The notes under the pieces: model-generated | Databases searched by the model: none | What the model was told of the DNA's origin: nothing | The model's input: only the letters and a program-made list of their open reading frames with translations | IMG/VR virus record: IMGVR_UViG_3300033514_000010 | Coordinates: 1 to 25,553 of that record | Source: a virus | Lineage: Duplodnaviria; Caudoviricetes | DNA length: 25,553 nt | Reading direction: 5' to 3' (one strand) | Translations under genes and position numbers: made by a program | In this document: positions 1 through 25,553 of the stretch, piece by piece | Layout of the letters: each line of letters opens with the position of its first letter | How positions within the stretch are numbered: position 1 is the first letter of the stretch

Positions 1-168
1 CGGCATCTGCGACAGTATGCGATTAGCTATGTCTAGTGTCCTATCGGTCGAGCCCGTGTCCACAAACACCACATGATCAACTGATGGCACAAATGACTCT
101 AAGCACGCTGGTAGATCAATCTCTTCGTTTTTTGCTATTAGGCATAAGCCTAGTCGGTTTTGGGCCAT
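1..168 (-). CDS. Family 2 glycosyltransferase, N-terminal part (runs off the left edge; not in the ORF track)
   Basis: Manual translation from ATG at 168: MAQNRLGLCLIAKNEEIDLPACLESFVPSVDHVVFVDTGSTDRTLDIANRILSQMP. This has the GT-A/GT2 N-terminal motifs CxIxKNEE..L..CL.S and VDTGSTD.T. A GGAG RBS lies upstream (atcGGAGtcatcATG). Confidence 0.9.
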   Translation of the reverse strand, partial: MAQNRLGLCLIAKNEEIDLPACLESFVPSVDHVVFVDTGSTDRTLDIANRILSQMP

Positions 169-427
169 GATGACTCCGATGGTAAGGGTATTTCGATGTG
201 ATATCAAACGCAGGCACAGTCAGACCCATGCGACTCATGGTGTATAGATATCCCTGCATAGCCTTATAAGATATTTCAAGACGTCTAGCGCAATGTGTTC
301 TGTTACCCCTACATCGTCTCAGCGTCTCGTAAATCCATAGCATCTTTATCTCATGTAGAGTAAATGGTACGTCAAGCGTCTCAAAATATTCTGCGAGTTT
401 AAAAATGTGTTCAGTTTTTTGTTCCAT
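116..427 (-). CDS. Fis/NtrC-type helix-turn-helix DNA-binding protein
   Basis: TLHEIKMLWIYETLRRCRGNRTHCARRLEISYKAM matches the Fis/HTH_8 pattern L.E.E...I..AL....GN.T.AA..LGIS..TL. Its 3' end overlaps the GT2 start by 53 nt. Confidence 0.75.
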   Translation of the reverse strand: MEQKTEHIFKLAEYFETLDVPFTLHEIKMLWIYETLRRCRGNRTHCARRLEISYKAMQGYLYTMSRMGLTVPAFDITSKYPYHRSHHGPKPTRLMPNSKKRRD

Positions 428-433
428 ACCGAT

Positions 434-462
434 AGAGTGTTTTTACTAGGCAAAATTGTCAA
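434..462 (-). promoter_or_regulatory. Putative sigma70-type promoter for the HTH-GT2 unit
   Basis: Minus strand reads TTGACA (462-457), a 17-nt spacer, CACTCT (439-434), then 6 nt to the ATG at 427. The -35 is perfect and the -10 is weak. Confidence 0.5.
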
Positions 463-503
463 TATAAATTATCATGACTTTATAAATTAAAAACGAGGAC
501 CAA

Positions 504-1025
504 ATGATAATCGAAAAAGTTAAGATATCGACACTCATAAATGATCCTAATAATGCTCGAAAGCATGACGCTAAGAACATCATGGCTATCAAGGGATCGC
601 TAGCCAAATTCGGTCAACAAAAGCCTATTGTCGTCAATGACAAAAATATCGTGATAGCTGGCAACGGAACACTACAGGCAGCATCCGAGATGGGCTGGAC
701 AGAGATCAACATCGTAAGGAGTGATCTCGACGGTTTTGATGCGACCGCATACGCTCTGGCAGACAACCGTACTAGTGAGCTAGCAGAATGGAATAGTGAT
801 GTCTTAAATACAACCCTCGAGGCGCTTAAATCCGTAAACTTCGATCTACCTAACATCGGTTTTGATATAGACGATTTTAAAGAAAAGGATAAACACAACA
901 TAGAAGATACCGAGCTACCAGCACAAAAATATGAGCTCATAGTCACAACAAGAAATGAACGAGAGCAAAAAGATCTTTTCGAGGAATTATCAGAAAGGTC
1001 ATTCCAATGCGTGATTTTACAGTAA
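504..1025 (+). CDS. ParB/Srx-like N-terminal domain protein
   Basis: PNNARKH..., SLAKFGQQKPIVV, IAGNGTLQAA and YALADNRTSELAEW are typical of phage ParB-N proteins. GAGG RBS upstream; located just ahead of the terminase. Confidence 0.88.
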   Translation: MIIEKVKISTLINDPNNARKHDAKNIMAIKGSLAKFGQQKPIVVNDKNIVIAGNGTLQAASEMGWTEINIVRSDLDGFDATAYALADNRTSELAEWNSDVLNTTLEALKSVNFDLPNIGFDIDDFKEKDKHNIEDTELPAQKYELIVTTRNEREQKDLFEELSERSFQCVILQ

Positions 1026-22498: not shown

Positions 22499-24201
22499 AC
22501 ATATTTACGAAAAAAGATTCCTACTGCACGACGATTCAAGACGATGCCAGAAAAGTGACCATCGTTTATCAGTCGGGATTGCAGGGTCCGAAGGGCGTCA
22601 CAGGCAGCACTGGCAGCACGGGAGCTACCGGGGTTGACGGTTATGTAGGTAGAGACGGATCCACAGGACCAACCGGAGAAAAGGGTGATACAGGCAGCAC
22701 GGGAGCTACCGGAGAAAAGGGAGATTTCGGTGGACCGAGTGGAGCCACAGGAGCTACGGGAGCAACTGGAATTCAAGGTGTCAAGGGTGATACAGGCAGC
22801 ACGGGAGCTGACGGTGAGAATGGCATTGCAGGTGCCACAGGAGCCACAGGAATTCAAGGCAACACAGGTGCCACGGGCGCGACCGGAATTGGAATTACAG
22901 GCAGCACTGGAATTGGCACCACAGGCCCGACAGGAGCCAAAGGAGATACGGGAGCAACGGGAACGAATGGAGCCAATGGCAATACAGGCGCGACCGGAGC
23001 GACAGGCGCAAGTGTCACGGGACCGACCGGAGCCTCAGGCACTAATGGAAGCACAGGCAGCACAGGAGCTACCGGAGCCAAAGGGGATACAGGCGCAACG
23101 GGTGTCAATGGCACCAATGGAGCCACAGGCAGCACTGGAAGTACAGGCACCACGGGAGCCACAGGACCATCAGGCACCAATGGCGAGAATGGCGTTACAG
23201 GACCGACCGGAATTGGCATCACAGGAGCCACCGGAGCCACAGGCGCAGATGGTAGTGCAAGTGCCACAGGTGCCACCGGAGCTACCGGAGCTAAAGGCGA
23301 TACAGGTGCGACAGGTGCTAGTATTACAGGGCCAACCGGAGCCGATGGTAGTGCAAGTGCCACAGGAGCCACAGGAGCCACAGGAGCCACCGGAGCCACC
23401 GGAGCCACAGGAATTAGCGTAACAGGCGCCACCGGAGACTCAGGCACCAATGGAGTAACAGGTGCCACCGGAGCTACCGGAGCTAAAGGGGATACGGGAG
23501 CCACAGGAGCCACCGGAGCCACCGGACCGACCGGAGACTCAGGCACCAACGGAGTAACAGGCGCAACGGGAGCCACAGGCACCAATGGGGTAACAGGTGC
23601 CACCGGAGCCACAGGCGAAAACGGCACCAATGGCGTCACAGGGAGCACAGGAGCCACGGGTGCCACAGGCGTTACAGGAGCCACAGGCGAAAACGGCACC
23701 AATGGCGTCACAGGAAGCACAGGATCCACGGGTGCCACAGGCGAGCAAGGAATTCAAGGTTTTCAAGGTGATCAAGGTATTCAAGGAATAACGGGACCGA
23801 CCGGAGCTAATGGCGATCAAGGCAGCACCGGAGCCACAGGCGAAAATGGTCAAGTCGGAAGCACAGGTGACACGGGCGCAACGGGAATTCAAGGCGAGCA
23901 AGGAATTCAAGGTTTTCAAGGTGATCAAGGTCCTCAAGGCAATACAGGCTCACAAGGAATTCAAGGCAATCAGGGCGAGCAAGGAATTCAAGGAATTGCT
24001 GGTGCCACGGGCGCGCAGGGAATCACCGGATCAAGTGGACCTACCGGAGCCACGGGCGCGCAGGGAATCACCGGATCAAGTGGACCTACCGGAGCCACGG
24101 GCGCGACCGGAGTCACAGGCGACTACATGGGTCAAATTGACGGAGGAACGCCATATTCGGTTTATGGTGGAACGCCAATAGCAGATGGAGGAACACCATA
24201 A
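22495..24201 (+). CDS. Long collagen-like fibre protein (Gly-X-Thr, then Gly-X-Gln) with C-terminal DGG motifs
   Basis: About 500 aa of Gly-X-Y triplets; ends [26 protein letters not shown] overlap with the adaptor gene. Confidence 0.9.
24004..24105 (+). repeat. 45-bp tandem duplication inside the collagen gene
   Basis: gccacgggcgcgcagggaatcaccggatcaagtggacctaccgga at 24004-24048 and 24049-24093, plus a partial third copy. Confidence 0.9.
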
Positions 24202-24992
24202 TGCCTATTAGAATGCAATTAAGACGAGGAACAACGACAGAGTGGAGCACTACAAATCCGATCTTGTCTCAAGGGGAATTGGGATTAGATACCACGCAAA
24301 ATAAAGTCAAATGCGGTGACGGTGTAAACTTATATTCTGTTTTGCCTTATATTGTAGGCTCAGACGGTGCCGTAGGCGTGACCGGACCAACTGGTGCCGT
24401 GGGTGCCACGGGACCAAGTGGACCGCAGGGCATAGCCGGAGTTGCCGGAGCCACCGGACCTACAGGATCTCAAGGCATTGCTGGTAGCACCGGACCTACA
24501 GGATCTCAAGGTATTCAAGGTGCTCAAGGTATTCAAGGTATTCAAGGTATTCAAGGCAACGTAGGAAGCGCAGGCGCAACGGGAAAAACCGGAGCCACAG
24601 GATCTCAAGGATCAATCGGTCCTCAAGGTGCTCAAGGCGTTCAGGGATTGAAGGGAGAAACGGGAGCCGCAGGAGCCACCGGAGCAACGGGAACATTCGT
24701 TGCCGCAGAGGCTTGGAATACAGCATCTTTAATCAACTCATGGGTCACCTATGCTACTGGAACCGAACCTTGCTATTATAAAGATCCTGCCGGAGTAGTA
24801 CATTTAAGTGGAATAGCAAAAAGCGGCACCGTTGCAGATCCTATATTTACTCTACCATCCGGACACCGACCGACTAAAGCTCAGGCCATTTATGCAGGAA
24901 CTAGTTACATTACAATTACTACGGCAGGCAACGTTAGATCCGACAGGAATACCTTTGTTACTTTAGATAATATTACGTTTAGAGAAGGATAA
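24201..24992 (+). CDS. Fibre protein: Mtd_N/hyaluronidase-N-like domain, collagen stalk, C-terminal putative receptor-binding domain
   Basis: [37 protein letters not shown] stalk; C-terminal W....[20 protein letters not shown] and LDNITF. Confidence 0.85.
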
Positions 24993-24995
24993 ATA

Positions 24996-25280
24996 ATGTC
25001 GCAGCAAATCATAATTCGTCGTGGAACAACGACACAATGGACCGATGCCAATCCCGTTTTGGCTCAAGGCGAATTTGGACTTGATACCGATTTATTAGAA
25101 ACTAAAATGGGTGACGGTGTAAAAACGTGGTCGAATTTATCTTTTATGAATACAACGGGTGCCACAGGTGCCACGGGCGCAACCGGAATTAGTGTTACTG
25201 GCGCAACCGGAGCTACGGGCGCAACCGGAGCGCAACCTAGTAGCATAGACGGTGGATCGCCATCAACGATATATGTTTAA
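24996..25280 (+). CDS. Mini fibre unit: Mtd_N-like domain, short GAT stalk, C-terminal IDGG peptide
   Basis: IRRGTTTQWTDANPVLAQGEFGLDTD...KMGDG...W..L; GAT repeats; SSIDGGSPSTIYV. Confidence 0.85.
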   Translation: MSQQIIIRRGTTTQWTDANPVLAQGEFGLDTDLLETKMGDGVKTWSNLSFMNTTGATGATGATGISVTGATGATGATGAQPSSIDGGSPSTIYV

Positions 25281-25318
25281 ATAATATTTCTTTTCTGGTT
25301 TAATTTTGAGGCGATTCA

Positions 25319-25553
25319 ATGGCTATAAAAATTCAAAACAGGCGTGGAACGACATCAGAATGGTCGTCATCTAATCCGGTTTTATCTTCCGGTGAGATCG
25401 GAATAGACACTACACTATTAGCCTATAAAATAGGTGATGGCGTAAAGACGTGGTCACAATTGTCGTTCATTACTGTCGGACCTACCGGAGCCACTGGACC
25501 TACGGGAAGCGTGACAAATACCGGACCTACCGGGCCGAGTGGAGCCACGGGAC
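25319..25553 (+). CDS. Third Mtd_N-like collagen fibre protein (runs off the right edge; not in the ORF track)
   Basis: Manual translation: [85 protein letters not shown]. Confidence 0.88.
   Translation, partial: MAIKIQNRRGTTSEWSSSNPVLSSGEIGIDTTLLAYKIGDGVKTWSQLSFITVGPTGATGPTGSVTNTGPTGPSGATG

What the first reader, a model, noticed from the sequence alone, without database searches (positions are those of the whole stretch)
1..25553. Candidate virion-wide O-glycosylation system: GT2 plus Gly-X-Thr tags grafted into many unrelated structural proteins
Seen: short (G-X-T)n-G tracts occur in proteins that are not collagens. They are the cement C-tail (8065-8172), connector GLTGPS (9512-9529), sheath GVTGPTGYTGATG (11709-11747), spike GLTGITG (within 17701-17730), baseplate J GFTGITGMTG (18518-18547), GVTG (18626), GMTGAT (18926) and GITGTTG (19205-19225), and fibre anchors GYTG (20107) and GITG (21506). 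All four collagen fibres are also GXT-rich. I noticed no comparable multi-triplet tracts in terminase, portal, ParB or tape measure. A GT2 gene of the CxIxKNEE/DTGSTD type sits at 1-168. Established: Thr-rich GXT collagen-like spore proteins (BclA of Bacillus anthracis, BclA3 of Clostridioides difficile) are O-glycosylated, BclA3 through the adjacent glycosyltransferase SgtA, and some mycobacteriophages glycosylate their virions. Inference: the internal tracts of 1-4 triplets are too short for a stable triple helix, so they may be portable acceptor tags that sugar-coat head, neck, sheath, baseplate and fibres.
Basis: partly seen in the sequence, partly recalled or inferred. Interest (0 to 1): 0.9.

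Follow-up and report, generated by a model that had tools for sequence, protein, structure and literature searches.

The report
Collagen-type sugar tags across phage virion
An uncultured contractile-tailed phage and its close relatives have repeatedly added short Gly-x-Thr-Gly words to their tail sheath, baseplate and capsid-decoration proteins and carry an enzyme resembling those that put sugars on such words in bacterial spore collagen, so they likely sugar-coat much of their particle, although no sugar has been measured.

Summary
All listed tracts are at the stated coordinates. Sheath (4 G-x-T-G against 0.26 expected), baseplate J (7 against 0.29) and cement (8 against 0.37) far exceed chance; the single motifs do not individually. 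The tracts are lineage-specific. The sheath tag is a conserved 13-residue insertion, and tandem tags occur in 59 of 70 baseplate J proteins of one clade, at several different sites, against 0 of 51 outside. The cut-off gene at 1-168 is the start of a roughly 340-residue GT2-TPR glycosyltransferase whose closest natural solved relatives are GmaR and SunS; the similarly built SgtA glycosylates short Gly-x-Thr peptides in vitro. The enzyme is in all three long tagged genomes and in none of 18 near-complete untagged relatives. Distant phage homologues lie near Gly-x-Thr proteins (25 of 62 loci; controls 1 of 115). Best reading: phage-encoded O-glycosylation of Thr in G-x-T-G, spread from collagen fibres onto core virion proteins (about 70%). 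Limits: no chemistry; enzyme and tags largely share one ancestry; major capsid and tube are untagged; exposure of the baseplate tags is unproven.

The parts
1..168 (-). N-terminal 56 codons of a GT2-TPR glycosyltransferase, cut by the contig end
   Evidence: PF00535 E 3e-6; 93% identical to the first 56 residues of the full-length 337-aa P0285; orthologues P0241-P0243 are GT2 plus TPR
116..427 (-). Small Fis-type HTH gene directly upstream of the GT gene; an orthologue lies next to or within about 2 kb of the GT in G001-G003
   Evidence: PF02954
7615..8175 (+). Capsid cement protein with a clade-specific Gly-x-Thr C-terminal tail (8065-8172); probably also a short triple helix
   Evidence: PF09956; 8 motifs vs 0.37; tail absent from untagged orthologues
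9512..9523 (+). Single GLTG in the head-tail connector (9434-9904), in a loop where relatives insert whole domains; weak tag
   Evidence: p 0.07; seen only in L004 among the orthologues printed; insertions in L032, L147, L148
11709..11747 (+). 13-residue GVTGPTGYTGATG insertion in the tail sheath (11355-12518); the strongest tag
   Evidence: insertion in about 43 near homologues, absent from about 70 others; conservation 0.90 vs 0.76; predicted loop with pLDDT under 50 at residues 125-130
17707..17727 (+). GLTGITG near the C-terminus of the spike protein (17128-17772)
   Evidence: p 0.015; variable region, single motifs nearby in L014, L171, L172, L198
18518..18547 (+). Baseplate J tract GFTGITGMTG (residue 135), made by substitution in a folded beta domain
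   Evidence: site tagged in 24 of 70 clade members, 0 of 51 outside; P0107 carries a CBM5/12-like insertion here
18626..18637 (+). Baseplate J single GVTG (residue 171)
   Evidence: 14 of 70 vs 2 of 51
18926..18937 (+). Baseplate J GMTG (residue 271) on conserved glycines; sister lineages insert a 10-residue Gly-x-Thr tract at the same place
   Evidence: 58 of 70 vs 2 of 51
19205..19225 (+). Baseplate J GITGTTG (residue 364)
   Evidence: 50 of 70 vs 2 of 51
20107..20118 (+). GYTG in the N-terminal anchor of the first short fibre paralogue; weak tag
   Evidence: p 0.15; site tagged in 9 of 42 near and 3 of 50 distant anchors
21506..21517 (+). GITG at the same site of the third fibre paralogue; weak tag
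   Evidence: p 0.14
22495..24201 (+). Long Gly-x-Thr collagen fibre (96 motifs; Thr in 93 of 165 triplets)
24201..24992 (+). Mtd_N-anchored collagen fibre (13 motifs, 38-triplet run)
24996..25280 (+). Short protein with 6 motifs, runs of 4 triplets
25319..25552 (+). Paralogue of the previous two genes, cut by the contig end (5 motifs)

Best explanation
This myophage and its clade carry a GT2-TPR glycosyltransferase and have repeatedly gained short Gly-x-Thr-Gly words in cement, sheath, baseplate and fibre proteins, and the enzyme likely adds a sugar to the threonine of these words so that much of the outer particle would be glycosylated. Shown: the words, their clade-restricted and repeated gain, their conservation as protein, the enzyme's architecture and its co-occurrence with the words. 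Inferred: the enzyme works in the infected cell before or during assembly and reads the word in a loop or unfolded chain without needing a triple helix, as SgtA does on peptides. It would add a first sugar (HexNAc by analogy; donor unknown), which the further GT2 enzymes, methyltransferases and the NDP-sugar dehydratase seen in relatives would extend and methylate. Inferred order: enzyme plus collagen fibres and cement tail came first, and internal tags were added later, separately in each lineage. The benefit (shielding against proteases, grazers or sticking to surfaces) is a guess.
For: Sheath: 13-residue insertion in about 43 homologues, absent from about 70. Conservation is 0.90 vs 0.76 elsewhere, with Thr or Ser kept at its four hydroxyl positions in 42-43 of 43, while 63% of same-residue codon pairs differ silently (19 DNA versions). 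Baseplate J: tandem tracts in 59 of 70 clade members, 0 of 51 outside, at several separate sites, by both insertion and substitution. G-x-T-G averages 4.96 vs 0.27 per protein while G-x-T-nonG (2.94 vs 3.08) and background Thr are unchanged. Other lineages tag other proteins: terminator (L021, L102, L103), tube (L021), baseplate I (L167) and extra sheath sites. Virion proteins 44 vs 9.2 expected in the window plus G001-G003, other proteins 3 vs 4.2 in G001-G003, nine enzyme-less genomes 12 vs 19.0. Enzyme orthologue in 4 of 50 records: G001-G003 (tagged) and G018 (75-motif fibre), none of 18 near-complete untagged ones. Contig-length link 6 of 12 tagged vs 0 of 15 untagged contigs, p 0.003. 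Distant homologues: 25 of 62 viral loci have an ORF with 10 or more motifs, controls 0 of 10, 1 of 59 and 0 of 46. Best natural PDB matches of the profile: GmaR 6e-23, SunS 8e-18. SgtA (358 aa, GT2 plus TPR) glycosylates 12-25-residue Gly-x-Thr peptides, including single-site ones at 28-39% conversion (PMC7157674). Relatives insert unrelated sequence or whole domains at the same sheath, connector and baseplate loops.
Against: No glycan, activity or donor sugar is shown. The window's gene is cut after 56 codons, so its intactness rests on orthologues. Within the family, enzyme and tags mostly follow one ancestry (the sheath tag has one main origin), so the genome counts are not independent. The enzyme occurs with few or no internal tags: G018 5 vs 2.4, and L408, which overlaps L122 of a lineage with a cement tail and untagged baseplate J. 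G021 has a 15-motif protein but no orthologue. 37 of 62 distant homologue loci have no Gly-x-Thr-rich ORF within the fetched DNA. The window's baseplate tracts lie in well-folded beta structure (pLDDT about 97), and in E217 one baseplate conformer points a domain at the tail tip, so exposure is uncertain. The enzyme gene is not in the structural operon. Major capsid and tube are untagged.
Confidence: 0.7

Rival explanations
1. The words are read by something else (a host enzyme, another modification of Thr, or a binding partner), and the phage GT2-TPR glycosylates only the long collagen fibres.
For: The enzyme occurs with fibres but few internal tags in G018 and in the L408/L122 lineage. Enzyme and tags share ancestry.
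Against: The internal words equal the fibre words and match the peptides SgtA accepts singly. Tandem tags are confined to the clade that has the enzyme.
Confidence: 0.13
2. The tracts are structural: short triple helices, flexible linkers, or docking sites that zip with the collagen fibres.
For: Gly-x-y periodicity. Cement, spike and fibres are usually trimers (established knowledge), so their tracts could form helices. The sheath tag is conserved.
Against: Sheath rings are six-fold, and the sheath and baseplate tracts have only 1-4 triplets. Thr/Ser specifically is kept and G-x-nonThr-G is hardly enriched (2.51 vs 1.92). Tag positions differ between lineages, unlike a fixed interface. Close relatives assemble without them.
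Confidence: 0.08
3. Neutral spill-over: repeat DNA from the collagen genes recombined into tolerant loops and has no function.
For: Tagged genomes carry large Gly-x-Thr repeat genes, and several tags are insertions in permissive loops.
Against: The sheath tag is more conserved than its protein, with silent sites saturated. Many baseplate tags arose by substitution at unchanged length. Non-virion proteins are not enriched.
Confidence: 0.04
4. The GT2 acts on phage DNA or on a host polysaccharide, and its link to the tags is shared descent.
For: In G001 and G002 the gene lies among replication and recombination genes. Phage glycosyltransferases often modify DNA or serotype (PMC12619734 passage).
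Against: GT2-TPR build with protein- or peptide-acting closest structures. A separate TAGT-family DNA-type enzyme sits beside ParB in some relatives. Distant homologues lie next to Gly-x-Thr proteins while TAGT loci do not.
Confidence: 0.05

Closest known systems
SgtA and BclA3 of Clostridioides difficile (PMC7157674; passages and tables read)
   Same: A roughly 350-residue GT2 plus TPR enzyme with a Gly-x-Thr collagen substrate. Short peptides, even with one Thr or Ser site, are accepted in vitro, and their words match the phage words.
   Different: SgtA lies directly beside one spore collagen gene. Here the enzyme is phage-encoded, far from the fibre genes, and the words are grafted into non-collagen sheath, baseplate and neck proteins. 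No direct sequence comparison with SgtA was made.
GmaR (Listeria; PDB 22AO) and SunS (PDB 7MSP; TIGR04195)
   Same: Closest natural solved structures to the enzyme family (E 6e-23 and 8e-18), with shared DTGSxD, DxD and HE motifs. SunS is named a peptide S-glycosyltransferase by NCBIfam; GmaR's transfer of GlcNAc to flagellin is recalled.
   Different: Far below the SunS cut-off (17-31 bits vs 350). Their acceptors are flagellin or bacteriocin peptides, not Gly-x-Thr words.
Mycobacteriophage virion glycosylation (Freeman et al. 2023; paper not held, known from citing passages in PMC12619734 and PMC10877033)
   Same: Phage-encoded glycosyltransferases decorate the particle.
   Different: There, glycans sit at the C-termini of capsid and tail tube subunits. 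Here capsid and tube are untagged, and the proposed sites are a collagen-derived word in cement, sheath, baseplate and fibres of a myophage.

Membership tests
SgtA/GmaR-type GT2-TPR protein O-glycosyltransferases | N-terminal GT-A (GT2) domain followed by TPR repeats, about 350 residues | tested here: met
   Orthologues of 339-346 aa carry PF00535 plus TPR families. The window fragment is 93% identical to the start of P0285; the window gene itself is cut.
SgtA/GmaR-type GT2-TPR protein O-glycosyltransferases | DTGSxD and metal-binding DxD motifs intact | tested here: met
   D34, T35, G36, D39 invariant and D97-A98-D99-D100 nearly invariant in 60 aligned sequences; the DxD lies beyond the window's edge.
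SgtA/GmaR-type GT2-TPR protein O-glycosyltransferases | Gene directly adjacent to its collagen substrate (as sgtA and bclA3) | tested here: not met
   In the window the gene is 22 kb from the fibres. Adjacency is seen in distant phage homologues (L318, L296, L287, L295).
SgtA/GmaR-type GT2-TPR protein O-glycosyltransferases | Transfers GlcNAc from UDP-GlcNAc to Thr or Ser | not testable with these tools
   Needs an enzyme assay.
SgtA/GmaR-type GT2-TPR protein O-glycosyltransferases | Phylogenetic grouping with SgtA itself | not tested
SunS family (TIGR04195) | Score above the curated cut-off of 350 bits | tested here: not met
   17.7-31.2 bits.
Mycobacteriophage-type virion glycosylation | Phage-encoded glycosyltransferases | tested here: met
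   2-3 GT2 matches in each of G001-G003, plus methyltransferases and a dehydratase.
Mycobacteriophage-type virion glycosylation | Sites at the C-termini of capsid and tail tube subunits | tested here: inconclusive
   Capsid and tube have no G-x-T-G; another kind of site there cannot be excluded.
Mycobacteriophage-type virion glycosylation | Glycan detected on particles | not testable with these tools
   Uncultured; nearest cultured sheath is 35% identical.
Collagen triple helix | Long uninterrupted Gly-x-y run (long fibres) | tested here: met
   Runs of 78 and 38 triplets; PF01391.
Collagen triple helix | Long uninterrupted Gly-x-y run (sheath, baseplate, connector and spike tracts) | tested here: not met
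   1-4 triplets; predicted as a loop or as beta structure.
TAGT DNA glycosyltransferases (PF20691) | Match to the TAGT model | tested here: not met
   No match in P0241-P0243; a separate gene beside ParB matches in G002 and G003.

The most novel reading that the evidence does not exclude
A phage lineage has turned the spore-collagen acceptor word G-x-T-G into a portable, genetically encoded glycosylation tag. With one GT2-TPR enzyme in place, each sub-lineage writes the word into whichever outer loop of sheath, baseplate, neck, tube, spike or cement it can, building a methylated glycan coat over a contractile-tailed particle. Glycosylation sites could then be read from sequence alone, and the enzyme-tag pair could serve as a minimal glyco-labelling tool.
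Probability: 0.6. Interest if true: 0.85.

Novelty: new variant of a known kind. Interest (0 to 1): 0.72.

Why it matters
Virion glycosylation in tailed phages is, in the papers seen here, described for mycobacteriophage capsids and tail tubes, without a known acceptor word. This case supplies a candidate enzyme, a four-residue acceptor word, a close biochemical precedent and a natural series of independent tag gains. The claim can be tested with one expressed protein and one peptide, without culturing the phage. If true, sugar coats on the contractile machinery could be predicted from genomes, and the evolution of a modification site by repeated grafting could be followed directly.

Tried and rejected
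A tree with treekit did not finish; FastTree trees with the tag columns left out were used instead, and their deep nodes are weak (clade support 0.84). The first scan for enzyme loci stopped at 18 of 64 parts and returned distant homologues; these served as the cross-family test, and a scan with the C-terminal half gave 6 close loci, three already known and one a copy of G001. A pattern search over 29 enzyme-bearing records (19 matched) used records chosen partly for known repeats and is not counted as evidence. The TAGT control is small (10 loci). Cultured phages hold no close relative: best sheath 35% (Bdellovibrio phage phi1422), best enzyme matches 25-40%. Genome-bin hits do not fix a host. 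No complex prediction was run. The portal GRTG was set aside as a surface tag because the E217 portal C-terminus points into the head. Freeman et al. 2023 is not held. A review on bacterial O-glycosylation had no passage on GmaR, SgtA, BclA or phage. Paper searches listed no report of Gly-x-Thr tags in sheath or baseplate proteins; the library lacks most subscription papers and no supplements were read.
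Full report
Setting. Families identify terminase, portal, cement, major capsid, connector, sheath, hub, spike, baseplate J and I, three short fibre paralogues and four collagen-like genes. Predicted sheath and baseplate J folds match phage XM1 best. The nearest cultured sheath is 35% identical, and the host is unknown.

Observation. Cement (8 G-x-T-G against 0.37 expected), sheath (4 against 0.26) and baseplate J (7 against 0.29) were not reached by any of 2000 shuffles; the spike is borderline (p 0.015). Connector and fibre singles are not significant alone. The portal has one motif at its C-terminus. Capsid, tube, hub, wedge and baseplate I have none. The absence from terminase, ParB and tape measure carries little weight here because under 0.2 motifs are expected in each.

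The tracts are lineage-specific. The best 120 of 651 sheath hits and the best 120 of 575 baseplate J hits were aligned. The sheath tract is a 13-residue insertion in about 43 near homologues and absent from about 70 others. On a tree built without those columns it has one main origin, one outlier and one differently worded insertion (116 rows after dropping those under 360 residues). Sub-clades add motifs at sheath residues 38, 153, 160, 185 and 221. In baseplate J, tandem tracts occur in 59 of 70 members of one clade (support 0.84) and 0 of 51 outside; two or more motifs occur in 61 of 70 against 2 of 51, and six clade members have none. Sites differ by lineage and arise both by insertion and by substitution at unchanged length. 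The cement tail is present only in tagged loci. Other lineages tag the terminator (L021, L102, L103), the tube (L021) or baseplate I (L167). The connector motif was seen only in the window and L004 among the orthologues printed.

The word is under selection as protein. In 43 tagged sheaths the tract is 0.90 conserved against 0.76 elsewhere (rank 9 of 374 windows), and its four hydroxyl positions hold Thr or Ser in 42 to 43 of 43. Across 19 DNA versions, 63% of same-residue codon pairs differ silently while 17% of pairs differ in residue. In baseplate J, G-x-T-G averages 4.96 inside the clade against 0.27 outside, while G-x-T-nonG (2.94, 3.08) and background Thr are unchanged. This argues against neutral copying of repeat DNA and against a general Thr bias.

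Virion against other proteins. Collagens and cement excluded, the virion proteins of the window and G001-G003 hold 44 motifs against 9.2 expected. The other proteins of G001-G003 hold 3 against 4.2; the six in the window's 'other' class are from the short collagen-like gene. Nine enzyme-less genomes hold 12 against 19.0, two of them fetched short of their last 2 kb.

The enzyme. The 56-codon fragment is 93% identical to the start of a 337-residue protein. Orthologues are GT2 plus TPR with intact DTGSxD and DxD motifs. The best natural solved matches of the family profile are GmaR (6e-23) and SunS (8e-18); it is not a SunS-family member. SgtA has the same build (358 residues) and adds GlcNAc to Thr in 12- to 25-residue Gly-x-Thr peptides, including single-site ones at 28-39% conversion, and accepts Ser (PMC7157674, passages and tables). 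A triple helix is therefore not needed in the precedent. Relatives also carry further GT2 enzymes, methyltransferases and, in G002, an NDP-sugar dehydratase, several inserted in the head module. A TAGT-family DNA-type enzyme is a separate gene beside ParB.

Co-occurrence. Of 50 family records searched, chosen for length or tags from the loci fetched, 4 hold the orthologue: G001-G003, all tagged, and G018, with a 75-motif fibre and single motifs only. None of the other 18 records at least 90% complete has it, and none of these has two motifs in sheath or baseplate J; four have GT2 genes of other kinds. The remaining tagged records are fragments. This link is indirect and misses G001. These counts share ancestry. 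A more independent test used distant viral homologues from a scan that covered 18 of 64 parts: of the best 80 loci, 66 were 10 kb or longer and 62 remained after removing duplicates; 25 have an ORF with ten or more motifs, against 0 of 10 TAGT loci, 1 of 59 distant family loci and 0 of 46 prophage loci. In several the genes are neighbours. Against a strict rule: 37 of 62 show none; G021 has a 15-motif protein without the enzyme; and L408 (enzyme) overlaps L122 of a lineage with a cement tail and untagged baseplate J. That last case suggests enzyme and collagens came first and internal tags later.

Exposure. The sheath tract is a predicted low-confidence loop, and five untagged homologues carry unrelated Pro- and acid-rich insertions there. 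The connector loop takes whole domains in relatives. Baseplate J site 135 takes a CBM5/12-like insertion in P0107 (E 2e-4, below cut-off). These are signs of room at the surface. Against that, the window's baseplate tracts lie in confident beta structure, and in E217 one baseplate conformer points its pin domain at the tail tip (PMC10329688, passages); whether this is the tagged domain is my inference. Accessibility was not computed.

Mechanism. Most likely (about 0.7) the phage GT2-TPR puts a first sugar on the Thr of G-x-T-G in the infected cell, accessory enzymes extend and methylate it, and selection has written the word into further outer proteins. The word, its history and the enzyme's type are shown; transfer, donor, timing and benefit are inferred. 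The cement tail and long fibres probably also form triple helices. The rivals are another reader with the enzyme limited to fibres (0.13), a structural role (0.08), a DNA or host acceptor (0.05) and neutral spill-over (0.04).

Comparison and novelty. It works like SgtA and BclA3 but fails the adjacency feature and was not compared with SgtA directly. Virion glycosylation is known in mycobacteriophages at capsid and tube C-termini (Freeman et al. 2023, not held; seen through passages in PMC12619734 and PMC10877033). Six searches listed no paper on such tags in sheath or baseplate proteins. Earlier unchecked notes of this scan describe GT2-TPR and collagen pairs and similar Ser/Thr-Gly-x-Thr enrichments in other phages; they are leads only and suggest the theme recurs. 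Verdict: a real feature, a new variant of a known kind, directly testable; interest 0.72.

Noticed in passing
window 504-2098; L242:3619-4365; L244:7339-8259; L247:11684-12562: The gene beside ParB varies between relatives: an ATPase-GNAT fusion here and in L406, Mom in G001, a TAGT enzyme in G002, G003 and G005. It looks like a swappable DNA-modification slot.
   Followed up: partly
window 12840-12869: The tail tube has a short Thr/Ser-rich insertion (GSGTGVATST) in the loop where L021 carries a true Gly-x-Thr tract; a possible variant site.
   Followed up: partly
window 5453-5464; L406, L090: The portal's C-terminal GRTG is shared with two relatives, though this end probably lies inside the head.
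   Followed up: partly
L323:9360-10870; L296:9348-10627: An unrelated phage group has a GT2-TPR directly after a small protein with short Gly-x-Thr tracts, and single motifs in several neighbouring proteins; possibly a parallel case.
   Followed up: partly
L258:6423-7937: In G018 the GT2-TPR is fused to an N-terminal methyltransferase.
   Followed up: partly
L251:14904-16766: The minor head protein of G005 carries an intein-like C-terminal extension (PF14890, weak).
   Followed up: no
window 2533-2910: A GIY-YIG endonuclease gene lies between the small and large terminase genes; it is absent at that place in the close relative L406.
   Followed up: no
window 20062-22144: Three tandem paralogous short fibre genes share an N-terminal anchor; relatives keep two or three.
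   Followed up: no
window 13004-13602: The tail chaperone is followed by a short conserved ORF whose orthologues open upstream in another frame, which suggests a programmed frameshift.
   Followed up: no
window 6505-7596: The head protease/scaffold has an exact tandem duplication of a Lys/Asp/Glu-rich segment near its C-terminus.
   Followed up: no
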